From contig JAKLDJ010000001.1 in NCBI GenBank assembly GCA_022703585.1, positions 676,006 to 740,005 on the forward strand: a stretch of DNA of 64,000 nt. Direction: 5' to 3'. Positions 1-36,874 of this stretch are shown here, in pieces. Positions within the stretch are counted from its first letter, which is position 1, and each line of letters starts with the position of its first letter. The stretch comes from Candidatus Omnitrophota bacterium (GTDB taxonomy: Bacteria; Omnitrophota; Gorgyraeia; Zapsychrales; JAKLDJ01). Made by a program: the position numbers and the translations under genes. The notes below the pieces were generated by a model, which had not been told where the DNA came from, searched no databases, and saw only the letters and a list, made by a program, of their open reading frames with translations.

Positions 1-489
1 ATAAACTCGGAATCGGATGACGCGTATCGCGAAATAGGAATTATCTACTATGGCCGCAGGGATTATGAAACAGCTGTTTCCTATCTTGAAAAATCATCCT
101 TTTATGACCCGGATAACGTCGATAGCTTGCTGTATTTAGGCATGTCTTATTTCAGGTTAAATCAACGCGACAAGGCCATGCCTTTTTTGGAGGAGGCGGT
201 TGTTTTAAGTAAAAATGATAGCTTTGCTTGCCGGTTTATTGCCGCGGAATTATACGATCAGCATTATGCCGTGGATGCCCTTGTTTTTCTTAAGAAAGCG
301 GCACAGTTATTCCCGCGTGATTCCGAGATTTGGCTCCTTTTGGGGAAAATCTATTTTAACCTCCATGATATTCCCAAGGCATTGGCTGCGTGGCAAAATA
401 TCTCAAAGTTTGATCCTGCCAATCCTGAACTAAAGGCTTGCCTGGAAAAGGTTGAGGCCTTAAGGGTGGCCGTGCCCGGTAACCCTTAA
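1..489 (+). CDS. TPR-repeat protein, 5'-partial (open reading frame continues upstream of window)
   Basis: Frame 1 is open from nt 1 to the stop at 487-489. TPR-like YxxxG/LG...Y periodicity (AYREIGIIYYGRRDYETAVSYLEKS, LLYLGMSYFRLNQRDKA). Confidence 0.55.
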   Translation: MNSESDDAYREIGIIYYGRRDYETAVSYLEKSSFYDPDNVDSLLYLGMSYFRLNQRDKAMPFLEEAVVLSKNDSFACRFIAAELYDQHYAVDALVFLKKAAQLFPRDSEIWLLLGKIYFNLHDIPKALAAWQNISKFDPANPELKACLEKVEALRVAVPGNP

Positions 490-4661: not shown

Positions 4662-4665
4662 ACAA

Positions 4666-7720: not shown

Positions 7721-7757
7721 AAAGCTTCGGCGTGCTTTTTGGCCGAGTAATAAACGG

Positions 7758-13548: not shown

Positions 13549-13621
13549 GCCGAGATAGCTCAGGTAGTAGAGCGCAGGCCTGAAAAGCCTGGCGTCCCCA
13601 GTGCAAGTCTGGGTCTCGGCA
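13549..13621 (+). tRNA. tRNA-Phe(GAA)-like gene with non-canonical D-loop and T-loop (possible pseudogene)
   Basis: The cloverleaf folds: acceptor GCCGAGA/TCTCGGC, anticodon loop CTGAAAA. The D-loop AGGTAGTA lacks G18G19 and the T-loop reads TGCAAGT instead of TTCRANY. Confidence 0.45.
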
Positions 13622-13712
13622 CTTGACTTCCTCTAAACTACAAGGATAGGCATTCAGAAAAGTCAAGTGCAGTCCCGACCTCCTTAGAATATGATTAGAG
13701 GAGGGTCGGGGC
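13619..13712. repeat. hairpin repeat units H1-H2 (GCACTTGACTT...AAGTCAAGTGC; GTCCCGACCTCC...GGAGGGTCGGGGC) abutting the tRNA 3' end
   Basis: Inverted repeats with 11-13 bp stems separated by AGT/AGC linkers. H1 begins inside the last 3 nt of the tRNA-Phe-like gene. Confidence 0.6.
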
Positions 13713-13855
13713 GGCACTTTACTTCTTTAGGGTTTAAAGGCTGTCATGCAGCAAGGTCGGACACGGAGCCACTTTTCCTTCCAAAATCATTGCCAATATT
13801 TTAAATATCCGTTAGAATAAAATTACTCCAAGGCTGTCGAATCGTGCTGAATATT

Positions 13856-13928
<73 letters not shown>

Positions 13929-13955
13929 TTTAAATATCATACATGGCGTAGTTCA

Positions 13956-14146
13956 GCACTTGCCTTCCTTTAAAAGTATGCTAGAAAAGGCAAGTGCAGC
14001 CCTTGACTTTTATAGGATGTAAGTTTCTTAAGTTTAAAGGAAGTCAAGGGCAGCCCAGCTATCCTTAAAATCTTATTCTAGAGGAGGCTGGTGCAGTCTT
14101 CGACCTTTCGGAATACAGTTTTTTAAGTTTAGAGGAAGTCGAAGGC
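13956..14146. repeat. hairpin repeat units H3-H6 (GCACTTGCCTT..., GCCCTTGACTT..., GCCCAGC..., GTCTTCGACCTT... each with a matching 3' arm)
   Basis: Four consecutive 42-53 nt imperfect palindromes. They share loop motifs TAAGTTTAAAGG / TAAGTTTAGAGG and AGT/AGC junctions. Confidence 0.6.
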
Positions 14147-14206
<60 letters not shown>

Positions 14207-14226
14207 TTTTTCTACCTCAAAACCCG

Positions 14227-16218
14227 TTGCCGACGGGTGCGTGCTACGTGGAGAAAATAAATATTTCTAAAAGAATTCCCCTCGAGTTTATCGTATTTCT
14301 CTTTCTCCTTGCCCTGTGTTTTATTCTTTACACCCCAAGCCTTAAAGCTGATTTTGTCCTGGACGATAATGTTGTTGTTGCCCAGAATCCCGCCATTAAG
14401 CAAGCCGGGCTTTACCGGTATATCTTTGCAAAGAGTTTCTTCAGTCCCTATAAATCTTCGGCCGATCTCAAGCTCGGCTATTACCGCCCGATGACGCTGT
14501 CGTCCCTGGCGCTAGATTACCGCATCTGGGGATTAAGGCCTTGGGGATACCGATTAACAAATATTTTTCTGCATGCCCTCAACGGAATACTTCTCTTTCT
14601 GCTGGTTCGCAGAATCTTCCAGAAAGAAGGGGCGGCGTTTCTCAGTGCTGTATTATTTTGTATTCTTCCGGTTCACGGGGTGACAGTTAATACGATTTCC
14701 TGTCGGGGTGATTTATTGCAGGCCTTCTTTTTATTGATGGCGTCCATTACCTTTGTCGGGTATCTCGGACAAAGAATTCGCGGAAAATTATTCTTAAGCA
14801 TTCTTTTTTTTATATGCGCCATCTTATCGCGGGAGACCTCTTTGGTATATCCCCTGCTAGCCATTTTACTATCGTGGAATCATGACAGGGATATGAAGGC
14901 TGCCGTGAGGAAATCTTTGCCTTTTTTTGCGGTTGCCGTATTGTATTATATCGTTCGTCTTGCTCTTTTTCCTATTGCCAGTGAGGGGCTGTCGGCGTTT
15001 TTATCGGCGGATAGGTTGTTGAGATGGTTTTTGATTATTGAAGAATACAGCGTGTGTTTTATTTTTCCCTGGTCCGCACAAACGGCTACGAAAATTTTAT
15101 TTGCACCCGTAGGCCTTAAATCTCTTATATTCTTGCTCGGTGTGATCGTTTTAATTGCCGGGATCTTTCTTGAGCGAAAAAAACAGCTTCGAAAAAGTCA
15201 GCTGATTTTTGGGCTCATCTGGATTTTCGTCACCATGCTGCCTTTTTTGGTGATGGAAAAACTTATCGAGAGAATGGGCCCCTATTTTTCAGAAGCCTAC
15301 CTGTATCTTTCTTCCGTCGGATTTGTCATTGTTTTGGGCAGCATTATTCTTAACCTCAACAGGACTTTTCGATACGGCATCTTGATATTTCTTGTGTCGT
15401 ACTATGTTCTTTTCAGTATTTATAATAACTATTCCTGGGATAGCGAGAAGAATATTCTCGATAGGGTCTTTCGCATCGAGCAGAGTTATGCGCATATCGC
15501 GGGGATGCAGCTCTTAATGAAGTACGAAGACAACGAAAGGGAAACGAGGAAAATTATTGATGCTCAAGGCAATCCCGCCTCCCGGAGCATGTGGGTCAAA
15601 AGATTGGGAGGTATCTACCGCCATCGAAAAGATTACCCCGGAGCTATCCCGCTGTTTAAAGAGGCGATCCGGTTGAATCCCGGGAACATTGAGGCGTATA
15701 ATGAACTCGCGGTGGCGTATTTTGAAGCAGGGGACGTGGACAACGGCATCCGCTACTTAAGGGAATCGCTCCTTCGGGACGGAGAATACGCCGAGACGTA
15801 TCGGATTTTAGGGCAGGTGTTGTATCAAAAGAATGATTATGCGGGTGCGGCCGGGAACCTGTCCAAGGCCTATTACTATAATCCCGACGATATGGAAACG
15901 CTGCTGTATCTGGCCATGGCAAATTTTTTTAACAAGCAGGATGACCAATATGCAAAATGGATGGATGTACTGATCAGGAAATTCGGCAATACACGGCTGA
16001 TTGTTCGATTTGTTGTCCATGAGCTGTACAATCACGGCTATTTTCGTAATGCGGCCCGGTTGATCGAAGATTCGCAGGAATATTTTACGGATGATGCCCG
16101 GATGTTTATGATATTGTCACGTGCCTATTTTTATATGGGGCAGGAGCAGAAAGCGACGGACGCCTGGAAGAAGGCAAGGATGATGAAATCATTTGCGTCA
16201 GTGGCCGGCAATCCATAG
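14227..16218 (+). CDS. TMTC/DUF1736-like polytopic membrane glycosyltransferase (GT-C fold) with C-terminal TPR repeats, paralog 1
   Basis: The N-terminal motif DDNVVVAQNPAI...YYRPMTLSSLALDYRIWGLRPWGYRLTNIFLHAL matches the TMTC/DUF1736 signature. About 10 TM helices and a C-terminal TPR array. Confidence 0.65.
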   Translation: MPTGACYVEKINISKRIPLEFIVFLFLLALCFILYTPSLKADFVLDDNVVVAQNPAIKQAGLYRYIFAKSFFSPYKSSADLKLGYYRPMTLSSLALDYRIWGLRPWGYRLTNIFLHALNGILLFLLVRRIFQKEGAAFLSAVLFCILPVHGVTVNTISCRGDLLQAFFLLMASITFVGYLGQRIRGKLFLSILFFICAILSRETSLVYPLLAILLSWNHDRDMKAAVRKSLPFFAVAVLYYIVRLALFPIASEGLSAFLSADRLLRWFLIIEEYSVCFIFPWSAQTATKILFAPVGLKSLIFLLGVIVLIAGIFLERKKQLRKSQLIFGLIWIFVTMLPFLVMEKLIERMGPYFSEAYLYLSSVGFVIVLGSIILNLNRTFRYGILIFLVSYYVLFSIYNNYSWDSEKNILDRVFRIEQSYAHIAGMQLLMKYEDNERETRKIIDAQGNPASRSMWVKRLGGIYRHRKDYPGAIPLFKEAIRLNPGNIEAYNELAVAYFEAGDVDNGIRYLRESLLRDGEYAETYRILGQVLYQKNDYAGAAGNLSKAYYYNPDDMETLLYLAMANFFNKQDDQYAKWMDVLIRKFGNTRLIVRFVVHELYNHGYFRNAARLIEDSQEYFTDDARMFMILSRAYFYMGQEQKATDAWKKARMMKSFASVAGNP

Positions 16219-16230
16219 AAAGGGTTAGCG

Positions 16231-18027
16231 ATGTCTATTCAAGAAGTTATTCTCCGGCATAAGAAACCATTGTCCTTAATCGTTGCCGCCATCGTGCTAA
16301 CCTATGCCGTTTCTCTGCTGAACGGTTTTGTAGGTGACGACCATTTTCTTTTTGAAAATAATGGTTTTTATAAGGATTTGAAGAATGTCTCCCGATTGGT
16401 GCAAAAGAATTTCATCACCGGTTTCGATGATATCGATAACGCTGCCATGAGAGGAAGTGTATCGATGTCGGGGTGTGTCTCGTATCGGCCGGTCACCGCG
16501 CTGTCGTTTTTTATCGATTATGCCGTCTGGAAACATAATCCCTTTGGCCATCATCTGACCAACATACTCATCCACATTCTTGCCTGCCTTTTTATTTACA
16601 CGCTGGTATTCTGGACCCTTAAAAACGCCAAGATCGCTGTCATGGCTGCTGTGTTATTTGCCGTTCATCCGATCAACGCGGAAGCGGTGAACAGCATCGG
16701 CTACCGGTCCGATCTTTTGTGTCTGGTTTTTTATTTGGCTACCTTTGTTTTCTTTATCCAATACCGCCGTTGCGGTAATTGTCAAAAATGGCAGTGGCTT
16801 GCGGCTTGCTATGGGGCATTTTTTCTTTCCCTGTTTTCAAAGGAAGGGTCTGCAACCCTGCCGCTTTTGTTGGCGGTTTACGACTGGTTTTTCTTAAAGA
16901 GTTACCGGCCGAAGGACCGCCGGCAGCTTATGCTCGAATACGCGGGTTTTGTCGGCCTATTGTTCTTTTACCTCTATCTATATTTCTTTGTTTTTCCAAA
17001 CTCGAATCATCCTCAGGATTATCTTCAATCAACCGATTTTGTAAGACAATTTCTTATTGCGACTAAAATCTTTTACAGCTATTTGATTGTTTTGATTTTC
17101 CCGCCTAAAATCACGATTTTGCCTACGCTGTATGTCCCGCCTTTAGCCGCAATCCGGCCCTATGAAGTTACCGCTGTCTTTGTTTTTATGCTTGTCTGTT
17201 TTTTTGCCGCGTTTCGATCGTTTAAGAAATCGAAAATAGTTTTGTTCTTTATCCTGTGGTTTTTTATAACCTACCTGCCTACGGCCAATCTTTTTCCCGT
17301 ACCCAACCCGTTTGCTTTTCGTTTTATGTACATGCCGTCGGTAGGCTTTTTTGTTATCGTTGCGATTTTTATCGAGAAATTATGTTCTCGGTTGACCCAA
17401 CGGTTCGGTTCGGTTCATTTCGAATACATTCTAAAGTTCGGGTTAGTCGGACTGTGTATGGTCATAACAATTCCTCACAATATGCTTTTTAAAAATGACT
17501 TTACCGTTTGCCAGGAACAAATCAAGCGATATCCGGACTGCTCAAAGCCGTACTGGGCGATAGGAGAGATTTATCTGAGCCACGGGGAATATAAAAAGGC
17601 GATAGAGAATCTCAGCGCATACTTAAGGATTGATAAAAACAATCCGTTTGTTGAAGCGATGAGCAGGGATTATTTTGTCTATAACCGCCTGGGGATGTGT
17701 TATGTCGATGATCCCGACAAGGCGATTGCCGAGTTTCAGACGTCGATTCGCCTGCGCCCTGAGTATGCACTGGCCTATGCCAATATGGCCAAGGCCTATA
17801 TTTTGAAAAAGGATTTTCAAAAATCTTTGGCTTATTCCCTGAAGGCAATTGAGCTTAATGACGGACTCGTGCTCGGCTATATTTATGCGATTTACTCTTG
17901 CCTTATGGCTGAAGATTTAGAGAAAGCCAAGGGGCTTTTAGAAAAAGCTGTTGAACTTTCCCCTGATGACGAGGGTGTGCAGTATCTGAAGAAACAAATT
18001 GATAGATATGAAAATAGCCGTAGATAA
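16231..18027 (+). CDS. TMTC/DUF1736-like membrane glycosyltransferase with C-terminal TPR repeats, paralog 2
   Basis: GDDHFLFENN...SYRPVTALSFFIDYAVWKHNPFGHHLTNILIHIL, multiple TM helices, and C-terminal TPRs. Confidence 0.65.
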   Translation: MSIQEVILRHKKPLSLIVAAIVLTYAVSLLNGFVGDDHFLFENNGFYKDLKNVSRLVQKNFITGFDDIDNAAMRGSVSMSGCVSYRPVTALSFFIDYAVWKHNPFGHHLTNILIHILACLFIYTLVFWTLKNAKIAVMAAVLFAVHPINAEAVNSIGYRSDLLCLVFYLATFVFFIQYRRCGNCQKWQWLAACYGAFFLSLFSKEGSATLPLLLAVYDWFFLKSYRPKDRRQLMLEYAGFVGLLFFYLYLYFFVFPNSNHPQDYLQSTDFVRQFLIATKIFYSYLIVLIFPPKITILPTLYVPPLAAIRPYEVTAVFVFMLVCFFAAFRSFKKSKIVLFFILWFFITYLPTANLFPVPNPFAFRFMYMPSVGFFVIVAIFIEKLCSRLTQRFGSVHFEYILKFGLVGLCMVITIPHNMLFKNDFTVCQEQIKRYPDCSKPYWAIGEIYLSHGEYKKAIENLSAYLRIDKNNPFVEAMSRDYFVYNRLGMCYVDDPDKAIAEFQTSIRLRPEYALAYANMAKAYILKKDFQKSLAYSLKAIELNDGLVLGYIYAIYSCLMAEDLEKAKGLLEKAVELSPDDEGVQYLKKQIDRYENSRR

Positions 18028-19882
18028 TTTAGCAAAAAGCCGGGTTATGATGGCGGCGTTTATTGTGCTGTTGGGATTGGCGGCATATTCTTTCGCCTTA
18101 AGCGCGCCTTTTAAGACGATGGACGACCAGTTTTCCATCGTCAATAATCCCGATATCCAGGATTTTTCAAATATCGGCAAAGTATTCCGGACAGGTTATT
18201 TCCAAGACCGTGCCTATTACCGGCCCCTTGTGATTGTCAGCTATATGATTGATTGTCACTTTTTCGGTGTCGACCCGCTCTTTTTTAAACTAAGCAACAT
18301 CATTATCCATCTTATAACGGCACTGGTTATCTTTCTTATTATTGCCCGCATCTTTCAGGATAAGAACATCGGGTTTTTTGTTGCGCTTCTCTTTGCTATT
18401 CACCCTGTTCACTGGAAATCGGTCTCCCATATTCCCGATCGGTCGATACTTTTAGCGTCGCTTTTTGAAATATCCGCCTTTTATTTCTTTTGCCTCTCTA
18501 AGACCGGCAAGAGAAGGCTGATGCACTACGCTGCATCACTTGTTTTCTTCGCGCTGGCGCTTTTGTCTAAAGAAGCCGTGATGGCCTTTCCCTTGATTGT
18601 ACTGAGCTATGAACTGATCTTAAGAGGGAAAGAGAAGAAACGATGGCTGTCGATAGCACAAAGCGTTTTGCCTTTCTTGGCGGTTTTAGTTTTTTATTTT
18701 CTAATCCGTCGACTTTTTGGGATCACGCAAGCTGATTACTGGGATTCTGCCCGAGAGCTTATTTTAGCGATGATAACATTTTTAAGGGCTGAGATCACCT
18801 ATCTAAGGATTTTATTTGCTCCGCTTGACCTTTATTTTGACAGGTCTATGGTGATTTTTACAAATTTCTCCGATCCCCAGGTTTTGCTGACGTTTTTATT
18901 TTTTGGTCTGTCGGCCCTAATATTATTCAGATTTAGAAAAAAAGTGTCGCCACCGGCGCTGTTTTTCGGATTGTGGTTTTTGATCGGCCTTTTACCCGTC
19001 TCCCAGATCTTGCCCATATGCGTACAGCCGGGGGCTATTTCTACGACCGAGCATTTTCTCTACGCGCCCTGTTTGGGGGTATTTGTTTTGTTTGTTTTAA
19101 TAGGCCGGTGGCTTTATCGCGAGGGTTTACGACGTAAAGTCTTTTCTGCCGGCGTATTTTGTTTTGGTGTTATCGGTTTATATGCTTTTCTTTTTATCAC
19201 CCTTGTCCAGCAAAACATCTATTCGGCCAATGAGTTGGCGATGCTCAGGCAATCCGTCATGCGCAATCCTCAAAATAGCCGCGTTCAACTTTGTTTAGGG
19301 TTGGTGTATGCCCGGAAATGGTTATTTAAAGAAGCGGAGGGACATTTTCGAGAGGCCCTCAATCTTTTTCCGGGGTACGTGGAAGCCCGCATTGCTTTGG
19401 GCAAAGCCCTGTGCGACCAGGGCCGTCTTCTCGAAGGGCTGAACGAATATGAGAGAGTCGCCGATGCCGGCCGGCACGCGCAGCTTTTAGAAAATAACAT
19501 GCGTTTAACCCGGGGGTTATTGATTAAGCAGTATCAGGCGGCGATTGCCCGCGATGAGGGCAACGCCGATTTGCATTACAGCCTGGGCGTTGCTTATTCA
19601 AAGAACAAGGAAACTGAGAACGCTATGGAACAATATCTCAGGGCGGTGGAGCTGCGTCCGGATTTTAAGAATGCCCTTTTTAATCTGGCGTCCAGTTATG
19701 AATCGATCGGTCGGATTGATGAGGCGGTTTTCTATTACGAGAAAATAACTTTTCCGGATGACCAGCCGGATTTATTAACGGCGCGTGTTTATTTTCAGCT
19801 AGCCAATATTTACAAAAAAAGAGGGGATTTTCAGAAAGCCGAAGAATATTTTCAAAAGAGCCGTGCCGTAAAACCCAGATAA
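17999..19882 (+). CDS. TMTC/DUF1736-like membrane glycosyltransferase with C-terminal TPR repeats, paralog 3
   Basis: MDDQFSIVNNPDI...YYRPLVIVSYMIDCHFFGVDPLFFKLSNIIIHLI, TM helices, and C-terminal TPRs. It overlaps paralog 2 by 29 nt. Confidence 0.65.
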   Translation: MIDMKIAVDNLAKSRVMMAAFIVLLGLAAYSFALSAPFKTMDDQFSIVNNPDIQDFSNIGKVFRTGYFQDRAYYRPLVIVSYMIDCHFFGVDPLFFKLSNIIIHLITALVIFLIIARIFQDKNIGFFVALLFAIHPVHWKSVSHIPDRSILLASLFEISAFYFFCLSKTGKRRLMHYAASLVFFALALLSKEAVMAFPLIVLSYELILRGKEKKRWLSIAQSVLPFLAVLVFYFLIRRLFGITQADYWDSARELILAMITFLRAEITYLRILFAPLDLYFDRSMVIFTNFSDPQVLLTFLFFGLSALILFRFRKKVSPPALFFGLWFLIGLLPVSQILPICVQPGAISTTEHFLYAPCLGVFVLFVLIGRWLYREGLRRKVFSAGVFCFGVIGLYAFLFITLVQQNIYSANELAMLRQSVMRNPQNSRVQLCLGLVYARKWLFKEAEGHFREALNLFPGYVEARIALGKALCDQGRLLEGLNEYERVADAGRHAQLLENNMRLTRGLLIKQYQAAIARDEGNADLHYSLGVAYSKNKETENAMEQYLRAVELRPDFKNALFNLASSYESIGRIDEAVFYYEKITFPDDQPDLLTARVYFQLANIYKKRGDFQKAEEYFQKSRAVKPR

Positions 19883-19967: not shown

Positions 19968-21251
19968 ATGGTTGGATTGATTGCAAAGCTTAAAAACAGC
20001 AGATTTCTCCGGCTATGGCTGGGTCAAGTTTTTTCTCAGTTTGGCGATCGCATTAACCAGATGGCCTTGATTGGGCTTATTGCCGGCCGCACCCCCGGCT
20101 CGGCGGTTGAGTTGGCTAAATTGTTGTCATTTACCATCATCCCGGTTTTTATTATCGGTCCTGTCGCGGGTGTTTATGTGGACCGCTGGGATAAACGCAC
20201 CACCCTTTTCGTCTGTGATTTTCTGCGCGGTCTTCTGGTTTTAACCATACCGTTTATTTTCATCGACCGCGGTTCGATGATCCCTATTTATGCGGTTGTC
20301 TTCCTGGCATTTTGTCTCAGCCGTTTTTATGTCCCTGCCAAGATGTCTATTATTCCCGATCTGGTAGGAGAAAAAGACCTGTTGATGGCTAATTCCCTGG
20401 TAACGACAACGGGGATGATTGCTTTTATCCTGGGGTGTGTATCGGGCGGATTTATCGTCGAGAAATTTGGCGCCAAGGGCGGATTTATTTGCGATGCGGC
20501 CACGTTTTTCGTTTCAGGGATTCTCGTATTTTCTATCGGCAGCCAGTTCCGGATGAAAATCAATACTTCCGAAATTATTGGCATCAGCAAAGAAGTCATG
20601 ACGGTTATCAAAAAGTCGGTTTTAAGCGAGATTAAAGAAGGCGTCAGCTATCTCATCAATCATAAAGACATACGCTTTATCGTTAGCACACTTTTTATCC
20701 TTTTTTCGGCGGCGGGCGCTATCTATGTCGTGATTATCGTTTTTGTGCAGGAGGCCTTTCACAGCGTAACCCGCGACTTGGGGCTATTAGCGGTCTTTTT
20801 GGGGCTGGGGCTTTTCTTAGGGTCCCTGATCTATGGCCGTTGGGGGCAGAGACCGTCAAAATTTAAGGTGATTTTTTTCTGTTTGTTCTTAGGGGGCCTG
20901 ATGGTAATATTATTTTCGGCGGTGGTGCATAAAGTACAAAATCTTTCAGTGGCGGCAAGCTTGACGTTTCTATTGGGCCTTATCTTGGGACCGATTATGA
21001 TTGCTGCGAACACGGTAGTTCATGAGGTGAGCGACGAGGGCATGCGCGGCAAAGTTTTTAGCTTCCTTGAAATTGTCATGCATTTAGGTTTCTTGATCGC
21101 GATGCTGGTTAGTTCTATTCTCGCAGAATATATCGCGCATTTTTGGATTCTGATCGGCGTGGGCTCGGTTTTTTCTTTTATCGGCCTGATCGGCCTTCTA
21201 CGGTACAAGAAAGAAGGGTCCAACCTTGCAACTGAAAGGGTTTTTCAATGA
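19968..21251 (+). CDS. MFS transporter
   Basis: 12-TM architecture and an N-terminus (FLRLWLGQVFSQFGDRINQMALIGL) typical of MFS_1. GGAG SD. Confidence 0.8.
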   Translation: MVGLIAKLKNSRFLRLWLGQVFSQFGDRINQMALIGLIAGRTPGSAVELAKLLSFTIIPVFIIGPVAGVYVDRWDKRTTLFVCDFLRGLLVLTIPFIFIDRGSMIPIYAVVFLAFCLSRFYVPAKMSIIPDLVGEKDLLMANSLVTTTGMIAFILGCVSGGFIVEKFGAKGGFICDAATFFVSGILVFSIGSQFRMKINTSEIIGISKEVMTVIKKSVLSEIKEGVSYLINHKDIRFIVSTLFILFSAAGAIYVVIIVFVQEAFHSVTRDLGLLAVFLGLGLFLGSLIYGRWGQRPSKFKVIFFCLFLGGLMVILFSAVVHKVQNLSVAASLTFLLGLILGPIMIAANTVVHEVSDEGMRGKVFSFLEIVMHLGFLIAMLVSSILAEYIAHFWILIGVGSVFSFIGLIGLLRYKKEGSNLATERVFQ

Positions 21252-21850
21252 TGAACTTTGCGGTCTTTGCTTCGGGAAACGGCAGTAACCTGCAGGCCAT
21301 TATTAACGCTGTTAAAAAAGGCCGTGTCCGGGCCAATCTGAAACTTGTTGTTTCCGATAACCCGTCGGCTTATGCCTTGAAGCGTGCCAAGAAAGCAAAC
21401 ATCAGATCAATTGTGGTTGAGCCAATTGGTTTTCCCGACCGGGAAAGTTTTGACCGGGAAATAATTAAGCGCTTGGAGCAGGAGCAAATTGATTTTATTG
21501 TGCTGGCCGGTTTTATGCGTATCTTAAGCCCGGTTTTTATCCGGAAATACCCGCATAAAATCCTTAATATCCACCCCGCGATTTTGCCTGCGTTTAAAGG
21601 CGCACATGCGATTAAGGATGCCTTTGAATATGGGGTTAAGGTTACGGGCGTAACCGTTCATTTCATCGACGAAAAAGTTGACCACGGCCCGATTATCCTG
21701 CAGGAACTCGTTAAAGTCTCTCCTCGGGGCACACTCGCCAGCCTCGAGAAGAAAATCCACGCGATCGAGCACAAAATCTATCCCAAAGCGGTCGATCTCT
21801 TTGCCCGCGGCTGTATAAAAATCCATGGGCGCACGGTTAAAATTCGTTGA
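21248..21850 (+). CDS. purN: phosphoribosylglycinamide formyltransferase
   Basis: FASGNGSNLQAII, HPAILPAFKG and VTGVTVHFIDEKVDHGPII motifs. ATGATGA overlap with the upstream stop. Confidence 0.9.
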   Translation: MMNFAVFASGNGSNLQAIINAVKKGRVRANLKLVVSDNPSAYALKRAKKANIRSIVVEPIGFPDRESFDREIIKRLEQEQIDFIVLAGFMRILSPVFIRKYPHKILNIHPAILPAFKGAHAIKDAFEYGVKVTGVTVHFIDEKVDHGPIILQELVKVSPRGTLASLEKKIHAIEHKIYPKAVDLFARGCIKIHGRTVKIR

Positions 21851-29163: not shown

Positions 29164-31272
29164 ATGGCTTGGATTGAGCGATGCCTTTTCGAAGAGAATA
29201 TCAGCCACAGCGAAGAGAATCCATCAAAGCAGTCTTTTCTTAAAAGGCAGAAATGGGTGATGGTAGGTTTTGCGATGCTTATATTCGGAATAAGTTTTCT
29301 TGAGTATAGGCAGCCATATTATTTCGTGCAGGATGATAATTTTGCGCAGTTTCTTTCTGTTGTTTTGGAAGGCTGTCGTGCTTTTATGAAAGGCGCAATT
29401 TTAGATTGGAGCCCGTATCAATTTCTCGGTTTTCCTGTCGCGAGTACGGGAGAGTATGCCTTAACGTATCCCCCCACATATTTTTCGTTCATTATAGCCC
29501 GCTATCTTCTGGGGAATGAACTATTGACTCTTGATGTGTTTTGCATTCTTCACCTTGTTGCGGGATATTTTGCCGCCTATTGGCTCTTATGGCGTAATAA
29601 ATTGCATCCTTTTCTTGCGGCGGCCGGTAGTTTGTCATTTATCCTGTCAGGGTATACGCTTATCGCAGGGCGCTCCTGGTTTCCTATGATTGCTTCGGTT
29701 GTGTGGATACCGCTTTTATTCTTATCGGTTACTGTGCTTAAGCAAGGCAATCCTGGCTGGAAGTGGATTATCGGCACAGGGTCTATGGTAGGTATTTTCT
29801 TCCATGCCGGGCATGCGCAGATGTGGATGTATGCGATAATGTTTTTTTTATTTTCGCTTACAGTTTTGTTTTGTTCGGGTCAACTGTCTTTCCGTAAAGT
29901 TTTATATGCGATCCCTGCGCTTCTATTCGGCTTAGCGATTGCCATGCCGTTGCTCATTCCTCAATGGTCAATCGTCCGAGGTATTCCGAGAGATCCCTTT
30001 CTGGTATCGGGTATCCCCTATAAGGGCATAGGGGCAATGCTCTTGCCTTTTCCTTTTATCCGTGCCCCATTCCCGGAAACAAGCTGGGGGACTGTCTATG
30101 ACCAAGGGCACCTGACGCCCTTCTATTATTCAGGAACGATATTTTTCGCGGTTTTTTTGGGAGCCATTTTAGCTATTTCGATTTTGTTATTATTTGGAAA
30201 GAATAAGCGGCTATTGCTCAAACGATTCATAGCGGATAATATTTGGATCATCTTAGCCTTGTTAGCCTTGGTGCTTGCGATGGGCCATCGCGGCTTATTA
30301 TGGACTATTCAGGCTCAACTCCCTATCTTTAATAAATTCAGGATGCCCTTTAAGTTTTTACACTACTTTAATTTATTTGCCGTAATGGGAGGGGGCGTGA
30401 TTATAGAGCGGTGTCTTCGCACGGCGCGCAAGAAGGAGCTCTGGGCATTGTTTCTCGGTACAGCTGTCTGCAGCTTAATGCTGTATCATGTCAGCCTTTC
30501 CAGTGCCAGTTTTTATTCCTATGGCGATAGGCCCTCTCGTTTGCAATCATACAAAGATAGATTCAATATTTCAGATTTTTCTGATCGCGGGAATATTCGG
30601 CGAGTCTTAAGTTTAACTTCCGATCGTAGCCCTAAAAGCGGCTATGTATTTTCTCTCAACCATAATTTTCCAACTTTCTTCCATGTCCATGCTTTCGGGG
30701 GATACGACTACTTTATTGATAAATCTCCTTATTTTTCCAAGGCAAAGGAAAATCTGTTCTCTCGTCCTTCGGAAGCGGCTATTGCTTACGGCATACGGTG
30801 GGTTGTTATCGACAGAGATATTGAAGAAAAGAAAATGGCAGATGCGCGTAGTTTAGGATTGGCAAGTTTCTTGCTTGCGCAGGGCGTAAAACGCCGGGTT
30901 ACTCCGGATTATGTCCTCGTTCGGCTTAACAATGCGCATCCCCTTGTATTTGTTGAGGGTCATCCCCGGGGAGCGTTGCCGTTTTCTGTCAAGAATAACG
31001 GCCTTGATATCGATACTTCGCGTATCTTGATTGCCGGAGGGCGCATCGTCATCAATATGCTTTGGCGGCCGGAAATCATGGTCATGCACGGCAAAGAGAA
31101 ATTAAAGTGCGAGGCCGATCTCTGGGGGAGGGTTGTTGCCGAGGTCCCTGCCCAGGTAAAAATTGTCAGTTTCCGGTATCTCCCGCCGTGGAAGGCAGGT
31201 TTTGCGGGAGGAATATTGTGTTTGGCCGGTGCTATCGCTGCCTATTTCTTACTAAGAATGAGAATTCTCTAA
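29164..31272 (+). CDS. YfhO-like polytopic membrane protein (putative GT-C glycosyltransferase)
   Basis: 702 aa with about 12 or more TM helices and a C-terminal soluble domain. Translationally coupled (TAAATG) to the downstream GT2 gene. Confidence 0.5.
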   Translation: MAWIERCLFEENISHSEENPSKQSFLKRQKWVMVGFAMLIFGISFLEYRQPYYFVQDDNFAQFLSVVLEGCRAFMKGAILDWSPYQFLGFPVASTGEYALTYPPTYFSFIIARYLLGNELLTLDVFCILHLVAGYFAAYWLLWRNKLHPFLAAAGSLSFILSGYTLIAGRSWFPMIASVVWIPLLFLSVTVLKQGNPGWKWIIGTGSMVGIFFHAGHAQMWMYAIMFFLFSLTVLFCSGQLSFRKVLYAIPALLFGLAIAMPLLIPQWSIVRGIPRDPFLVSGIPYKGIGAMLLPFPFIRAPFPETSWGTVYDQGHLTPFYYSGTIFFAVFLGAILAISILLLFGKNKRLLLKRFIADNIWIILALLALVLAMGHRGLLWTIQAQLPIFNKFRMPFKFLHYFNLFAVMGGGVIIERCLRTARKKELWALFLGTAVCSLMLYHVSLSSASFYSYGDRPSRLQSYKDRFNISDFSDRGNIRRVLSLTSDRSPKSGYVFSLNHNFPTFFHVHAFGGYDYFIDKSPYFSKAKENLFSRPSEAAIAYGIRWVVIDRDIEEKKMADARSLGLASFLLAQGVKRRVTPDYVLVRLNNAHPLVFVEGHPRGALPFSVKNNGLDIDTSRILIAGGRIVINMLWRPEIMVMHGKEKLKCEADLWGRVVAEVPAQVKIVSFRYLPPWKAGFAGGILCLAGAIAAYFLLRMRIL

Positions 31273-32085
31273 ATGAACCCGAAGGGAAATGCGTCATTAC
31301 CAGAGAGAAACCCATCATTAAATTTCCAGAGCTTCGCAGGGTCCGTGAGCATGAATAGCCTATCGCTTATTATCCCGGTCTACAACGAAGAAGAAAATAT
31401 CTTGCCCCTTTTATCGGCGGTTAGGAAAACGATACCTCTGGTATGCGGTGATTTTGAGGTCATTTTAATCGATGATGCCAGCACAGACGGAACTCCGGGG
31501 ATACTTGATGCTGTCGCCGCGACCGACGGGAAGATAAAAATTCTGCATAATCAGAAAAACAGGACATCAGGCGGAGCCTTAAAAGAAGGTTTTAAAGTTG
31601 CCGGTAAAGAATTGGTATTATATTTCGATGCGGATTTGCCGTTCGATTTAAGCGAGACAGGGAAAGCCATAGCACTGTTGGGAAAAGAAAATGCAGATTT
31701 TATATCTGCCTACAGGCTGAATAGAAACGCAGACGGGATACAAAGATCGATTTACAGCTATATTTATAACGCAATGGTCAATTCCTTGTTTGACCTGGGC
31801 TTAAAGGATGTCGGTTTTTCGTTTAAGCTGTTTAAGCGTGAAATATTAGAGAATATTGTATTACATTCCGAAAGCCCATTTATTAATGCCGAAATGCTCA
31901 TTAGCGCGCGACAGGCGGGGTACAGGATACTGCAATTTCCGACAGTTTATTATCCTCGTACTAAGGGGCGATCGAATATTTTTAGGGTTGCAGTTGTTGC
32001 AAAGATGATTCAGGAGCTGTTCCGTTTTTATTTCTATATACGTAAGTGCCAAGTGCAAGAACAAAAAAGACGCAAAAAAAAGTGA
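31273..32085 (+). CDS. GT2 family glycosyltransferase (polyprenyl-phosphate sugar transferase, DPM1/GtrB-like)
   Basis: LSLIIPVYNEEENI, ILIDDASTDGT and DADL motifs. An alternative start is the ATG at 31351. Confidence 0.8.
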   Translation: MNPKGNASLPERNPSLNFQSFAGSVSMNSLSLIIPVYNEEENILPLLSAVRKTIPLVCGDFEVILIDDASTDGTPGILDAVAATDGKIKILHNQKNRTSGGALKEGFKVAGKELVLYFDADLPFDLSETGKAIALLGKENADFISAYRLNRNADGIQRSIYSYIYNAMVNSLFDLGLKDVGFSFKLFKREILENIVLHSESPFINAEMLISARQAGYRILQFPTVYYPRTKGRSNIFRVAVVAKMIQELFRFYFYIRKCQVQEQKRRKKK

Positions 32086-36147: not shown

Positions 36148-36171
36148 AAAATTTAAAAACAGGAGAGTCCC

Positions 36172-36861: not shown

Positions 36862-36874
36862 ACCAATATTTCCT

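What the first reader, a model, noticed from the sequence alone, without database searches (positions are those of the whole stretch)
14227..19882. Three tandem TMTC/DUF1736-like TPR-containing membrane glycosyltransferase paralogs
Three consecutive genes of 663, 598 and 627 aa each combine an N-terminal polytopic domain with a C-terminal TPR array. The polytopic domain carries the DUF1736/TMTC signature: an acidic DD/DDxF loop, then YYRP(L/M/V)xxLSxxxDY...GxxPxGYHLxNIxxH. In eukaryotes this family (TMTC1-4, GT105) O-mannosylates proteins. The bacterial members are uncharacterised. Three diverged paralogs in an apparent operon suggest either different acceptor specificities or a multi-step protein or glycan O-glycosylation system in this organism's envelope. 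A further TPR protein ends at nt 489, and YfhO-like plus GT2 genes lie at 29-32 kb.
Basis: partly seen in the sequence, partly recalled or inferred. Interest (0 to 1): 0.55.

Follow-up and report, generated by a model that had tools for sequence, protein, structure and literature searches.

The report
Bacterial TMTC-like membrane glycosyltransferase gene cluster
Three adjacent genes (plus a fourth just upstream) in an uncultured Omnitrophota bacterium encode bacterial relatives of the animal TMTC protein O-mannosyltransferases; this is a very large, already noticed but still uncharacterised family, so the finding is real but not a new kind of system.

Summary
Three same-strand ORFs of 663, 598 and 627 aa (A, B, C) are full-length paralogs at 24-26% identity. 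Each has an 11-helix membrane domain and a periplasmic TPR array.

The TMTC interpretation holds, but not for the stated reason. A profile built from 12 animal TMTC N-domains hits A, B and C at 78-125 bits. The bacterial-family profile hits all 12 TMTCs at 166-237 bits. hhalign gives probability 100%, E 2.5e-57. ArnT is not hit by sequence, though it is the top structural match (GT-C fold).

There are four paralogs. The TPR ORF ending at nt 489 is the tail of a 672-aa gene (D), 35% identical to A.

B-C-MFS is an old, co-conserved, overlapping operon. A is lineage-specific and sits beside a partial duplicate of tRNA-Thr.

All window paralogs keep the catalytic DD. Each clade carries fixed, orthologue-conserved changes in donor-binding motifs, and dN/dS is 0.13-0.20.

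The most likely function is periplasmic transfer of a sugar from a polyprenyl-phosphate donor to protein acceptors. Donor, sugar and acceptor are unknown. The family has more than 70,000 clusters. It is a new member of a known, uncharacterised kind.

The parts
14227..16218 (+). Gene A, TMTC-family GT-C + TPR protein (663 aa from TTG 14227; public aa from GTG 14248). The GT-C membrane domain is about aa 1-405 and the TPR-like helical array about aa 437-659. Lineage-specific, fast-evolving, sister to paralog D.
   Evidence: PMT_2 29.1 bits vs cutoff 26.1, plus TPRs; 100% identical to an Omnitrophota MAG protein; next best hit 31%; AF2 pLDDT 82.4; TMTC HMM 107.5 bits; 66% identity to the L001 orthologue; dN/dS 0.16.
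14362..14367 (+). Codons for A D46-D47, the GT-C catalytic 'DD' (TMTC motif M1) in periplasmic loop 1.
   Evidence: D47 invariant and D46 >=90% conserved across 46 family members.
16231..18027 (+). Gene B, TMTC-family GT-C + TPR protein (598 aa). The GT-C domain is aa 1-420 (11 TM helices) and the TPRs about aa 425-598. This is the most conserved paralog, with many orthologues at 40-78% identity.
   Evidence: P0087 100% identical, orthologues abundant; AF2 pLDDT 87.3, pTM 0.91; Foldseek top hits ArnT, AglB, STT3, PglB, Pmt4; TMTC HMM 125 bits; positive-inside topology; dN/dS 0.13.
16336..16341 (+). Codons for B D36-D37, catalytic DD (M1).
   Evidence: 'F[VI]GDD' is conserved in all B-clade orthologues.
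17999..19882 (+). Gene C, TMTC-family GT-C + TPR protein (627 aa from TTG 17999; public aa from ATG 18008). It overlaps the 3' end of B by 20-29 nt. It is the only window paralog that keeps an acidic residue at the TMTC M5 (DW) position (LYFDRS).
   Evidence: orthologues 83/47/39% identical in L001/L003/L002; motifs; TMTC HMM 77.6 bits, one alignment spanning profile positions 5-401; dN/dS 0.20.
18122..18127 (+). Codons for C D42-D43, catalytic DD (M1).
   Evidence: 'FTMDDQ' is conserved in the C-clade.
19968..21251 (+). MFS transporter (427 aa, about 11-12 TM), co-conserved immediately downstream of C in every B-C locus examined. It is a candidate lipid-linked donor flippase or exporter; this role is inferred, not shown.
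   Evidence: MFS_1, MFS_3; best NCBIfam matches TIGR00900, the Aas MFS part and LplT, all below cutoffs; synteny in L001, L002, L003; 4-nt overlap with C in L002, 8-nt gap in L003; 55-95% identity; dN/dS 0.04.
21248..21850 (+). PurN-like formyltransferase. It overlaps the MFS stop by 4 nt and is probably a co-transcribed passenger, not a functional part of the system.
1..489 (+). 3' end (last 162 codons) of paralog D, a 672-aa TMTC-family GT-C + TPR gene that starts 1530 nt upstream of the window (L011:6783-8801). It is the sister of A. Its M1 is D-A (second Asp lost).
   Evidence: TPR; colinear with A 518-649, E 9e-20; 672-aa gene with PMT_2 weak hit + TPR, next to a T2SSE ATPase; 35.5% identity to A over 642 aa, E 1.5e-126; TMTC HMM 106 bits.
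13549..13622 (+). tRNA-Phe(GAA), syntenic with the cluster in L002 and L003.
13856..13928 (+). tRNA-Thr(CGT). In L003 (no gene A) the same tRNA lies 35 nt upstream of B. In L002 it lies between B and C.
14146..14209 (+). 5'-truncated duplicate of tRNA-Thr(CGT), 64 nt and 86% identical to 13868-13931. It ends 17 nt before A's TTG. It is a footprint of a rearrangement or integration at the tRNA where the lineage-specific gene A sits.
   Evidence: Rfam tRNA 30.5 bits vs 29; sequence; direct repeat D1.
31273..32085 (+). GT2 glycosyltransferase of the polyprenyl-phosphate-sugar synthase type (ArnC/PgfS/AglJ/Dol-P-hexose-transferase-like). It is the only candidate in the window for making a lipid-linked monosaccharide donor. 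A link to A-C is inferred only.
   Evidence: Glycos_transf_2, 98 bits; best NCBIfam matches ArnC 68.6 and PgfS 65.2 bits, all far below equivalog cutoffs.
29164..31272 (+). 702-aa polytopic ORF abutting the GT2, with no family hit. It has TM1 followed by 'FVQDDNF', about 8-10 TM segments, a soluble domain of about 300 aa and a C-terminal TM. It is a possible unrelated GT-C-like enzyme; the 'YfhO-like' label is unverified.
   Evidence: no Pfam/NCBIfam hit at E<=10; sequence and hydropathy; not hit by the TMTC-family HMMs.

Best explanation
A, B and C, plus D just upstream, are bacterial members of the TMTC family of GT-C-fold (class A) integral-membrane glycosyltransferases, in a Candidatus Omnitrophota bacterium.

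Shown:
- Each protein has a cytoplasmic N-terminus and 11 TM helices. All conserved motif loops face the periplasm, and the C-terminal TPR domain of about 5-7 repeats is also periplasmic.
- The domain is homologous end to end to the animal TMTC N-domain.
- The fold matches ArnT, OST and PMT.
- The loop-1 Asp-Asp, the YRP motif and the (K/R)-E motif are conserved.
- All four genes are under purifying selection or carry clade-conserved signatures.

Inferred mechanism:
1. A cytoplasmic GT2 loads a monosaccharide onto undecaprenyl phosphate.
2. The lipid-linked sugar is flipped to the periplasmic face.
3. The GT-C domain binds its phosphate and sugar through the EL2/EL3/EL5 motifs.
4. With the loop-1 Asp as catalytic base or metal ligand, the sugar is transferred to a hydroxyl of an acceptor held by the TPR domain. 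The acceptor is most likely Ser/Thr of periplasmic, outer-membrane or surface proteins, as for TMTC1-4 and for P. aeruginosa TfpW.

Gene history:
- B-C-MFS is an ancient, translationally coupled, co-conserved unit.
- A belongs to a second subfamily (with D) and was added next to tRNA-Thr in this lineage.
- The subfamilies differ by fixed substitutions in the motifs that contact sugar, metal and phosphate in TMTC models (M3, M5, M7). They are therefore functionally differentiated (different donor, acceptor or role) and not redundant.
For: Homology to TMTC:
- An HMM of 12 animal TMTC N-domains (alignment from PMC7801869 Additional file 1) hits B at 125 bits (E 2e-34), A at 107.5 (5e-29), C at 77.6 (6e-20) and D at 106, with Z set to 1e6.
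- The TM-only bacterial profile hits all 12 TMTCs at 166-237 bits. ArnT is not hit in either direction at E<=1000.
- hhalign gives probability 100%, E 2.5e-57, 385 aligned columns.

Fold:
- The AF2 TM-only model of B (pLDDT 87.3, pTM 0.91) has only GT-C class A enzymes as top PDB matches: ArnT 5f15/5ezm E 2e-4, then AglB, STT3, PglB, Pmt4, Pmt1/2, AftA, EmbB, DPY19.

Topology:
- K+R density is 0.24 in predicted cytoplasmic loops and 0.07 in periplasmic loops. This matches the TMTC model (PMC7801869) and the TfpW PhoA/LacZ data (bioRxiv 10.1101/2020.04.19.049825).

Motifs:
- D47 is invariant and D46, K202 and Y360 are >=90% conserved in 46 homologues.
- Clade-specific motif states are conserved across orthologues at 39-83% identity.

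Selection:
- dN/dS is 0.16 (A), 0.13 (B) and 0.20 (C).

Operon:
- A-B gap is 12 nt. B-C overlap is 29, 20 and 11 nt in the window, L001 and L003.
- B-C-MFS is conserved in L001, L002 and L003.

Donor logic and precedents:
- An ArnC/PgfS-like GT2 lies in the window, and a GT2 overlaps the start of B in L002.
- GT2 + flippase + GT-C systems are described in PMC11127046.
- GT-C-mediated Ser/Thr O-glycosylation from Und-P-sugars in streptococci is described in PMC12041528.
Against: - No biochemical data exist for any bacterial TMTC-like protein other than TfpW, whose sequence relationship to this family I could not test.
- None of A, B or C has the complete TMTC motif set. The SHK part of M2 is absent in all. 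M5 (DW, the DUF1736 loop) is absent in A and B. The M7 Arg, called 'strictly conserved' and phosphate-binding in TMTC models, is Ala in A and His in C. The M3 acid is Ile in C. The HPxHxE His and Glu are lost in A. So A and possibly C could be catalytically impaired or use a different chemistry.
- No polyprenyl-phosphate GT2 or recognised flippase sits in the A-B-C operon itself. The nearest suitable GT2 is 11 kb away and paired with another membrane protein. The GT2 next to B in L002 is not its orthologue.
- No acceptor candidate is identifiable. The flanking genes are housekeeping.
- ArnT, the closest solved structure, modifies a lipid and not a protein.
Confidence: 0.6

Rival explanations
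1. The enzymes are active GT-C glycosyltransferases, but the acceptor is a glycan or lipid (lipid A/LPS core, O-antigen-like polymer, exopolysaccharide or peptidoglycan-linked polymer) and not a protein. This would resemble ArnT or the periplasmic three-component glycan-modification systems. The TPR domain would dock onto polysaccharide export or assembly machinery.
For: - ArnT is the best structural match.
- Most characterised bacterial GT-C enzymes modify glycans or lipids (PMC11127046).
- The cluster sits in an envelope-biogenesis neighbourhood: LpxL-type acyltransferase 7656-8717, Lnt 4432-6276, and LptE, BamD-like and MurJ upstream of D.
- The B-like single-gene paralog in L005-L008 directly follows an Omp85-family gene.
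- From general knowledge, TPR domains also occur in polysaccharide export proteins (BcsC, PgaA, AlgK). Weak NCBIfam TPR hits to PgaA and BcsC appear.
Against: - Sequence relationship is far closer to the protein-modifying TMTCs (78-125 bits) than to ArnT (no hit).
- The only characterised bacterial enzyme with this exact architecture (TfpW: 11 TM + DDx + periplasmic TPR) glycosylates a protein.
- No polysaccharide synthesis or export genes are adjacent.
- The LpxL/Lnt neighbours are simply conserved gene order and are separated from A by several housekeeping genes.
Confidence: 0.22
2. Some or all paralogs are non-catalytic. Pseudo-glycosyltransferases, especially the A/D subfamily and perhaps C, would serve as TPR scaffolds, chaperone-like receptors or regulatory partners of the one fully equipped enzyme (B).
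For: - A has Ala at the M7 Arg position, unique among 46 aligned homologues. It has also lost the HPxHxE His and Glu.
- D has lost the second Asp of DD.
- C has Ile at the M3 acid and His at the M7 Arg.
- A evolves fastest: 66% identity to its L001 orthologue against 79-83% for B and C.
- From general knowledge, eukaryotic TMTC1/2 were first described as ER calcium-homeostasis adaptors.
Against: - The first loop-1 Asp, which is the residue conserved in every GT-C (PMC7801869), is retained in A, B, C and D.
- The deviating residues are conserved within each clade across distant orthologues.
- dN/dS is 0.13-0.20 over the whole genes.
- His at the M7 Arg position occurs in about 10 other family members, so it is an accepted variant.
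- The membrane domains are as conserved as the TPR domains, which is not expected if only the scaffold mattered.
Confidence: 0.13
3. The cluster is a TfpW-like pilin (type IV or Tad pilus subunit) glycosylation and polymerisation system. The enzymes would add and possibly polymerise a sugar on pilins in the periplasm.
For: - The architecture is identical to TfpW: about 646 aa, N-in, 11 TM, essential DDx in loop 1, periplasmic TPR, ArnT as best template (bioRxiv 10.1101/2020.04.19.049825).
- TfpW's loop-4 YX6P motif corresponds to the nearly invariant Y274-X6-P281 of this family.
- Paralog D lies directly downstream of a 363-aa T2SSE/PilT-like ATPase.
Against: - No pilin gene is adjacent to A, B, C or D in the 64-kb window or the 8 kb upstream, whereas tfpW always follows pilA.
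- No D-Araf or other dedicated sugar-donor genes are present.
- Direct sequence homology to TfpW was not tested because no TfpW sequence was available in the tools.
- The family is far too large (>70,000 clusters) to be pilin-specific as a whole.
Confidence: 0.05

Closest known systems
Animal TMTC1-4 (protein O-mannosyltransferases for cadherins/protocadherins; CAZy GT105 from my own knowledge; motif definitions from Eisenhaber et al. 2021, PMC7801869)
   Same: - Same two-part architecture: an 11-TM GT-C domain followed by a TPR array on the extracytoplasmic/luminal side.
- End-to-end profile homology (hhalign probability 100%, E 2.5e-57; reciprocal HMM hits of 78-237 bits).
- Shared motifs: FVxDD (M1), YRP (core of M2), HPxHxE-like segment, RxD (M3; A, B), KE (M4), P in TM9, (E/x)(R/x)xxY-PS-G (M7).
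- ArnT is the closest solved structure for both.
   Different: - Bacterial and periplasmic instead of ER-resident. The donor would be undecaprenyl-P-sugar, not dolichyl-P-mannose.
- The DUF1736 loop (EL4, motif M5 DW) has diverged beyond Pfam detection. A and B lack the acid entirely.
- The SHK part of M2 is absent.
- No paralog has the full ERxxY.
- In a rough NJ tree, animal TMTCs are a single clade (100/100) nested among other bacterial members (next to DUF1736-positive P0133). They do not sit next to A, B or C.
- Sugar and acceptors are unknown.
Uncharacterised prokaryotic TMTC-like proteins (e.g. AMJ42_05695 of Deltaproteobacteria bacterium DG_8, noted in PMC7801869; annotated in databases as 'tetratricopeptide repeat protein' or 'protein O-mannosyl-transferase')
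   Same: This is the family A, B, C and D belong to. The TM-only profile finds 148,182 / 117,228 / 73,245 50%-identity clusters at E 1e-3 / 1e-10 / 1e-30, and most are 500-700 aa. Pfam hits are equally patchy across the family: PMT_2 in 5/17, DUF1736 in 3/17, PMT in 1/17.
   Different: Nothing categorical. Specific to this locus are the conserved B-C-MFS operon, the two-subfamily set of four paralogs within 20 kb, and the clade-fixed motif substitutions.
Pseudomonas aeruginosa TfpW (group IV pilin D-arabinofuranosyl transferase/oligosaccharyltransferase; bioRxiv 10.1101/2020.04.19.049825)
   Same: It is the only characterised bacterial enzyme I found with the same architecture: about 646 aa, cytoplasmic N-terminus, 11 TM, essential DDx in periplasmic loop 1, YX6P-type motif in loop 4, large periplasmic C-terminal TPR domain, and ArnT as best template. 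It modifies Ser/Thr of a protein from a polyprenyl-P-sugar donor.
   Different: tfpW is always next to pilA and depends on a D-Araf donor gene cluster, and neither is present here. Sequence-level relatedness was not tested.
ArnT (GT83; 5ezm/5f15) and PMT/Pmt1-Pmt2/Pmt4 (GT39)
   Same: GT-C class A fold (Foldseek E 2e-4 for ArnT; TM-score up to 0.53 for Pmt4). Acidic residue pair in loop 1. Lipid-phosphate-sugar donor chemistry. From knowledge and PMC7759382, Pmt proteins work as dimers (the Pmt1-Pmt2 heterodimer), which is a precedent for paired paralogs.
   Different: No detectable sequence similarity to ArnT by HMM. Only A reaches the Pfam PMT_2 threshold, and only marginally (29.1 vs 26.1 bits). 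ArnT has 13 TM and no TPR, and its acceptor is lipid A. PMTs carry a MIR domain instead of TPRs.
Three-component periplasmic glycosylation systems (GtrA/GtrB/Gtr*; C. youngae ORF12/14/15, PMC11127046) and streptococcal Pgf/GtrB-PgtC2 protein O-glycosylation (PMC12041528)
   Same: Same expected logic: a GT2 makes Und-P-sugar, a flippase exports it, and a GT-C transfers it outside the cytoplasm. The streptococcal systems show that this logic is used for Ser/Thr O-glycosylation of envelope proteins in bacteria.
   Different: Those GT-Cs belong to other families (GtrC types, GT136, YfhO) and lack TPRs. Here no GT2 or known flippase family is in the operon. The co-conserved transporter is an MFS, which has not been described in that role.

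Membership tests
TMTC family (as defined in PMC7801869) | N-terminal 11-TM domain homologous over its whole length to TMTC N-domains | tested here: met
   The TMTC HMM hits A at 107.5, B at 125 and C at 77.6 bits. The bacterial profile hits all 12 TMTCs at 166-237 bits. hhalign gives probability 100%, E 2.5e-57, 385 columns. The AF2 models show 11 TM helices.
TMTC family (as defined in PMC7801869) | C-terminal TPR array on the same (extracytoplasmic) side as the catalytic loops | tested here: met
   TPR Pfam hits in all three. The AF2 model of A shows about 14 helices after TM11. The positive-inside rule gives N-in, C-out.
TMTC family (as defined in PMC7801869) | M1: DD in loop EL1 | tested here: met
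   A D46/D47, B D36/D37, C D42/D43. D47 is invariant in 46 homologues. Paralog D has D-A.
TMTC family (as defined in PMC7801869) | M2: SHKSYRP in EL1 | tested here: inconclusive
   The YRP core is present in A (YYRP), B (SYRP) and C (YYRP), at the same spacing from DD as in TMTC1. The S-H-K part, which includes the disease-linked His, is absent in all three and in the bacterial consensus.
TMTC family (as defined in PMC7801869) | M3: RxD/E in EL2 | tested here: inconclusive
   Met in A (RGD) and B (RSD). Not met in C (RSI), and Ile is conserved in all C orthologues.
TMTC family (as defined in PMC7801869) | M4: KE(T/Q)xxT in EL3 | tested here: met
   B has KEGSAT, C has KEAVMA and A has RETSLV (conservative K->R, also seen in D and in the L001 A orthologue). 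K is >=90% conserved in the family.
TMTC family (as defined in PMC7801869) | M5: DW in EL4, i.e. the segment modelled by Pfam DUF1736 (PF08409) | tested here: not met
   No PF08409 hit at E<=1 for A, B or C. The TMTC HMM alignment of A and B breaks at profile positions ~220-320. A and B have no acid at the D position. C has D-R (LYFDRS).
TMTC family (as defined in PMC7801869) | M6: PxxP in TM9 | tested here: not met
   Only one Pro aligns (B YLPTAN, C LLPVSQ, A MLPFLV), against PF(I/L)P in TMTCs.
TMTC family (as defined in PMC7801869) | M7: ERxxY in EL5 (Arg 'strictly conserved', phosphate contact) | tested here: inconclusive
   A has E-A-Y-L-Y (Arg lost). B has F-R-F-M-Y (Arg kept, Glu lost). 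C has E-H-F-L-Y (Arg->His). Tyr and the following PSxG are kept in all. Each state is conserved in that clade's orthologues.
TMTC family (as defined in PMC7801869) | Protein O-mannosyltransferase activity from a polyprenyl-P-mannose donor | not testable with these tools
   Requires biochemistry or glycoproteomics.
GT-C fold, class A (ArnT/OST/PMT-like) | Structural similarity of the membrane domain to solved GT-C enzymes | tested here: met
GT-C fold, class A (ArnT/OST/PMT-like) | Conserved acidic residue in the first extracytoplasmic loop | tested here: met
Pfam PMT_2 (PF13231) | HMM score above the gathering threshold | tested here: inconclusive
   A scores 29.1 bits against 26.1 (met, marginally). 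B and C have no hit at E<=1.
TfpW-like pilin glycosyltransferases | Architecture: N-in, 11 TM, DDx in loop 1, YX6P in loop 4, periplasmic TPR | tested here: met
   compared with the description in bioRxiv 10.1101/2020.04.19.049825.
TfpW-like pilin glycosylltransferases | Gene immediately downstream of the major pilin gene; dedicated sugar-donor cluster | tested here: not met
   No pilin or D-Araf genes are near A-D. Only a PilT-like ATPase lies next to D.
TfpW-like pilin glycosyltransferases | Sequence homology to TfpW | not tested
   No TfpW sequence was available in the accessible collections.
Three-component periplasmic glycosylation system | Polyprenyl-phosphate GT2 and a flippase encoded with the GT-C | tested here: inconclusive
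   No GT2 is in the A-B-C-MFS operon. An ArnC/PgfS-like GT2 lies 11 kb downstream, paired with another membrane protein. A non-orthologous GT2 overlaps B in L002. No GtrA, SMR or MATE gene is present. An MFS is co-conserved.

The most novel reading that the evidence does not exclude
B, C and the downstream MFS form a self-contained, previously undescribed type of periplasmic protein-glycosylation module. B and C would work as an obligate heteromer, analogous to Pmt1-Pmt2, with complementary active-site equipment: B keeps the M3 acid and the M7 phosphate-binding Arg, and C keeps the M5-like metal acid and the M7 Glu. The LplT-like MFS would be the flippase that delivers the undecaprenyl-phosphate-sugar donor. 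The A/D subfamily would then be accessory specificity or regulatory subunits. The evidence does not exclude this reading. Supporting observations are the conserved gene overlap, co-conservation across 39-83% identity, the complementary motif states, at least one natural two-module fusion with a topology-restoring extra TM (P0206), and the fact that the flippase family is known to vary between systems.
Probability: 0.15. Interest if true: 0.65.

Novelty: new member of a known kind. Interest (0 to 1): 0.4.

Why it matters
TMTC enzymes matter in human development and disease (cadherin O-mannosylation, cobblestone lissencephaly, hearing loss). No TMTC structure turned up in the PDB copy searched here, and their direct enzymology remains limited. 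Their bacterial relatives form a family of more than 70,000 sequence clusters for which essentially no function is known, although their existence has been noted.

This locus does not reveal a new kind of system. It does offer compact prokaryotic models, in particular B, which has many orthologues. It also yields a concrete hypothesis: a B-C pair plus a conserved MFS. That hypothesis could make bacterial TMTC-like glycosylation testable by heterologous expression. It also shows that the Pfam DUF1736 model is a poor diagnostic for this family, because only the EL4 loop diverges while the rest of the catalytic domain is conserved.

Tried and rejected
1. Pfam DUF1736 as the membership test. No hit for A, B or C at E<=1. 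I rejected it as a decisive criterion after seeing that it models only the TM7-TM8 loop (PMC7801869).
2. Sequence searches of the PDB with the TM domain alone (phmmer) and with a TM-only profile. Zero hits at E<=10. Full-length queries and profiles are swamped by TPR proteins.
4. The search for related loci with the TM-only alignment failed because no stretch was conserved enough. With B alone, the genome collection returned only one distant Phycisphaerales locus, so taxonomic spread in named genomes was not obtained.
5. The idea that the GT2 fused to B in L002 is the orthologue of the window's GT2. Rejected: 32% identity over 92 aa only.
6. The 'YfhO-like' label for 29164-31272. No support from Pfam or NCBIfam. 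It is not a TMTC-family member either. Similarity to the other unannotated 708-aa membrane ORF is marginal (E 0.001).
7. The idea that A arose by recent tandem duplication of B or C. Rejected. A is about 25% identical to both, its closest relative is D (35.5%), and an A+C grouping has only 35% bootstrap support.
8. The idea that A is a decaying pseudogene. Rejected by dN/dS of 0.16 and by conserved A-clade motifs.
9. PDB search with the MFS found no relatives.
10. P0266 as a Rosetta-stone fusion. Its junction looks like read-through of two adjacent genes, so it was set aside. P0206 is more convincing.

Full report
**Observation.** Base composition is unremarkable across the region. Public gene calls for the same DNA start A seven codons later (656 aa) and C at the ATG at 18008 (624 aa). 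The three proteins align over their whole lengths at 24-26% identity, with E 1e-29 to 1e-34. Each has C-terminal TPR hits and an N-terminal polytopic domain. The window comes from a Candidatus Omnitrophota MAG. A and B are 100% identical to proteins annotated there as 'tetratricopeptide repeat protein' and 'hypothetical protein'.

Pfam finds no DUF1736/TMTC_DUF1736 (PF08409) match at E<=1 in any of the three. Only A reaches PMT_2, and only marginally (29.1 bits against a cutoff of 26.1). NCBIfam gives only TPR-type matches. However, in a homologue that does hit DUF1736 (P0025), the model covers residues 259-310. Eisenhaber et al. [quoted passage not shown] A missing DUF1736 hit therefore says only that one loop has diverged.

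**Direct test of TMTC homology.**
- I took the published alignment of TMTC N-terminal domains (Additional file 1 of PMC7801869) and built an HMM from human, zebrafish and fly TMTC1-4.
- With the database size set to 1e6, it hits B at 125.0 bits (E 2.4e-34), A at 107.5 (4.7e-29), C at 77.6 (5.6e-20), and all 217 family proteins I had collected.
- In the reverse direction, a profile of 17 bacterial TM-only domains (A, B, C and 14 homologues) hits all twelve animal TMTCs at 166-237 bits. It does not hit ArnT even at E<=1000, and the TMTC profile does not hit ArnT either.
- Profile-profile comparison gives probability 100%, E 2.5e-57, with 385 aligned columns covering positions 17-402 of 403 and 6-428 of 432.
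- For A and B the TMTC-HMM alignment splits into profile positions ~5-220 and ~320-430. The gap is the DUF1736 loop, which explains the Pfam result.

**Fold and topology.**
- AF2 models are confident: A full length has pLDDT 82.4 and pTM 0.84. The B membrane domain has pLDDT 87.3 and pTM 0.91.
- The full-length model only retrieves TPR proteins from the PDB. The TM-only model retrieves ArnT (5f15/5ezm, E 2-4e-4), then AglB, STT3, PglB, Pmt4, Pmt1/2, AftA, EmbB and DPY19. All of these are GT-C enzymes.
- No TMTC structure appears. Sequence-level PDB searches with the TM domain find nothing.
- The B model has 11 TM helices. K+R density is 0.24 per residue in the loops predicted to be cytoplasmic and 0.07 in the short periplasmic loops.
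- This gives an N-in/C-out topology with loop 1 (DD, YRP), EL2, EL3, EL4, EL5 and the TPR domain all periplasmic. It agrees with the TMTC topology model (PMC7801869) and with reporter-fusion data for TfpW.

**Motif-by-motif membership.** TMTC motifs are M1 DD, M2 SHKSYRP, M3 RxD, M4 KE(T/Q)xxT, M5 DW, M6 PxxP and M7 ERxxY. Scoring on MAFFT alignments and on the TMTC HMM gives the following.
- M1 is present in A, B and C. D47 is invariant and D46 is >=90% conserved in 46 homologues.
- The YRP core of M2 is present in all three at the TMTC spacing. The SHK part is absent.
- M3 is RGD in A, RSD in B and RSI in C.
- M4 is RET in A, KEG..T in B and KEA in C.
- M5 is absent in A and B. C has D-R, as in LYFDRS; DUF1736-positive bacterial members have SADYS.
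- M6 has only one Pro in each.
- M7 is E-A-xx-Y in A, F-R-xx-Y in B and E-H-xx-Y in C.
- A additionally lacks the His and Glu of the strongly conserved HPxHxE segment.
- These states are not noise. Each is conserved in the orthologues of that paralog, which range from 39% to 83% identity.

**Gene history and context.**
- Orthologue loci show that B-C-MFS(-PurN) is the conserved unit. L003 (B 46%, C 47%) has the window's full synteny (lipid A acyltransferase, HAD, H+-PPase ... B, C, MFS, PurN, FtsH-like, enolase) but no A. L002 (39%/39%) has GT2-B-C-MFS-PurN. L001 (79%/83%) has A-B-C-MFS-PurN, with A at only 66%.
- B and C overlap by 29, 20 and 11 nt in the window, L001 and L003. C and the MFS are 85, 8 and -4 nt apart in the window, L003 and L002.
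- A separate B-like clade occurs as a single gene directly after a Peptidase_M1+Omp85 gene.
- The TPR ORF that ends at window position 489 is the tail of a 672-aa gene (D) lying after a PilT-like T2SSE ATPase. D is 35.5% identical to A over 642 residues (E 1.5e-126). It shares A's signature (LSRE, ILPxx, FVFPW, Arg lost in M7) and has D-A instead of DD. The genome region therefore carries four family members in at least two subfamilies.
- No other window ORF matches the family profiles.
- The 763 nt upstream of A contain tRNA-Phe(GAA), tRNA-Thr(CGT) and a 64-nt 5'-truncated duplicate of tRNA-Thr that ends 17 nt before A. In L003 the intact tRNA-Thr sits 35 nt before B, and in L002 it sits between B and C. 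A therefore occupies a site marked by a tRNA-flank rearrangement.
- dN/dS between the window and L001 is 0.16 (A), 0.13 (B), 0.20 (C), 0.04 (MFS) and 0.07 (PurN). All are under purifying selection. dS for A is near saturation, so the values are approximate.

**Size and position of the family.**
- The TM-only profile finds 148,182 representative clusters at E<=1e-3, 117,228 at E<=1e-10 and 73,245 at E<=1e-30 among 1.84 billion representatives. Typical lengths are 500-700 aa.
- Among 17 TM domains, 5 hit PMT_2, 3 hit DUF1736 and 1 hits PMT.
- A rough NJ tree (381 columns, 100 bootstraps, ArnT outgroup) recovers animal TMTCs as one clade (100%) nested within the bacterial diversity, next to the DUF1736-positive P0133 (58%). 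The A clade has 100% support, the C clade 87% and the B clade including the single-gene relatives 96%. A+C is unsupported (35%). The deep topology should not be trusted without ML analysis.
[quoted passage not shown] The existence of the family is therefore known, while its function is not.

**Mechanism.**
- *Shown:* GT-C fold, TMTC homology, periplasmic orientation of the conserved loops and TPRs, conservation of the loop-1 Asp pair, and purifying selection.
- *Inferred from the established chemistry of GT-C enzymes* (PMC7801869, PMC11127046, PMC12041528): the donor is a polyprenyl-phosphate-linked sugar made by a GT2 on the cytoplasmic face and flipped outward. The loop-1 Asp activates or positions the acceptor hydroxyl. 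EL3 K/E and EL5 R/H contact the phosphate and metal.
- *Inferred from TMTC and TfpW:* the TPR domain selects protein acceptors.
- A suitable GT2 (ArnC/PgfS/AglJ-like) exists at 31273-32085. It abuts a different, unclassifiable 702-aa membrane protein carrying 'FVQDDNF' after its first TM, so its link to A-C is only a possibility.
- The conserved MFS (closest NCBIfam matches are LplT and the Aas MFS part, all below cutoff) is a candidate flippase or exporter. Known three-component systems use flippases from different families (GtrA, SMR, MATE).
- B and C have complementary motif retention and overlapping genes. One database protein (P0206) fuses two such modules with an extra TM that restores topology. 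A B-C heteromer is therefore plausible but untested.

**Rivals.**
- A glycan or lipid acceptor (ArnT-like or three-component-like) cannot be excluded. It draws support from the structural match to ArnT and the envelope-biogenesis neighbourhood.
- Non-catalytic roles are possible for A/D and perhaps C, given the lost Arg, His, Glu or second Asp. The retained first Asp, the clade-conserved substitutions and the low dN/dS argue against this.
- A TfpW-like pilin system matches the architecture and the PilT-like neighbour of D. It lacks an adjacent pilin gene and donor genes.

**Verdict.** The finding is real and the TMTC-like reading is correct in substance, although the reasoning about DUF1736 was wrong and the description incomplete (four paralogs; a B-C-MFS core; A as a later addition). 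It is a new member of a known but functionally uncharacterised kind. Interest is moderate. The value lies in providing tractable bacterial models and a specific operon-level hypothesis for a very large orphan glycosyltransferase family, not in a new category of system.

Noticed in passing
window 14146-14209 (with 13856-13928 and 13549-13622): There is a 64-nt 5'-truncated duplicate of tRNA-Thr(CGT), 86% identical to the intact gene 278 nt upstream. It shares 34 identical nt from the D-loop to the T-arm and has a T-arm with paired changes. It ends 17 nt before gene A. tRNA-Phe and tRNA-Thr are syntenic with the B-C cluster in L002 and L003, and L003 lacks both A and (as far as ARAGORN shows) the duplicate. 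This looks like a footprint of integration or rearrangement at the tRNA where the lineage-specific gene A sits.
   Followed up: partly
window 1-489; L011:6783-8801 and L011:5606-6697: The truncated TPR ORF at the window start is the tail of a fourth TMTC-family paralog (D, 672 aa). It is 35.5% identical to A, and its DD motif has changed to D-A. It lies directly downstream of a 363-aa PilT-like T2SSE ATPase. MurJ, LptE and a BamD-like gene lie further upstream.
   Followed up: partly
window 29164-32085: A 702-aa polytopic ORF has no Pfam or NCBIfam hit even at E<=10. It has 'FVQDDNF' right after its first TM, a soluble domain of about 300 aa and a C-terminal TM. Its stop abuts the start of an ArnC/PgfS/Dpm1-type GT2. 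This may be an unclassified GT-C plus polyprenyl-P-sugar synthase pair. The 'YfhO-like' label is unverified.
   Followed up: partly
window 13617-14150: A family of short direct and inverted repeats (core GCACTTGACTTCC / GGAAGTCAAGTGC, 4 or more copies) forms hairpins after each tRNA gene in the tRNA-Phe/tRNA-Thr region. Its function is unknown; it could be terminators, processing sites or a small repeat element.
   Followed up: no
L005:5170-9767, L007:5178-9761 (also L006, L008): In other (likely Omnitrophota-related) genomes, a B-like single-copy TMTC-family gene starts 3-4 nt after a gene of about 940 aa that combines Peptidase_M1 and Omp85 domains. That gene is itself preceded by a small TPR protein. 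The fusion is unusual, and the tight coupling hints at outer-membrane biogenesis.
   Followed up: no
window 22915-25404 (- strand): An FtsH-like protease of 829 aa has two AAA modules (Pfam AAA, two stretches) plus Peptidase_M41. The syntenic gene in L003 is 560 aa with one AAA module.
   Followed up: no
window 50904-53916: A stand-alone LPG_synthase_C gene (aminoacyl-phosphatidylglycerol synthase C-terminal domain, 285 aa) is followed 29 nt later by an unannotated 708-aa membrane ORF (strong T-skew, no Pfam hit). This may be a split or rearranged MprF-like system.
   Followed up: no
P0206 (969 aa) and P0266 (1270 aa), database proteins: These proteins contain two complete TMTC-like modules. 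P0206 has an extra TM segment between the modules that would restore correct topology, so it looks like a genuine fusion. P0266's Arg-rich junction with an internal Met looks like read-through of two adjacent genes. Tandem TMTC-like genes therefore recur outside Omnitrophota.
   Followed up: partly
window 14227-19882 vs L001:3-5744: Synonymous divergence between the window and its sister genome differs markedly among adjacent genes: dS is 1.47 for A, 0.98 for B, 0.51 for C and 0.81 for the MFS. This is unexplained. It could reflect recombination within the cluster, saturation or noise.
   Followed up: no
window 32419-33921 (- strand): A 500-aa protein carries repeated MopE-type putative metal (Cu)-binding motifs. 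It lies next to a MarR - outer-membrane efflux protein (OEP family) - HlyD - ABC-2 efflux cluster (34382-38903).
   Followed up: no
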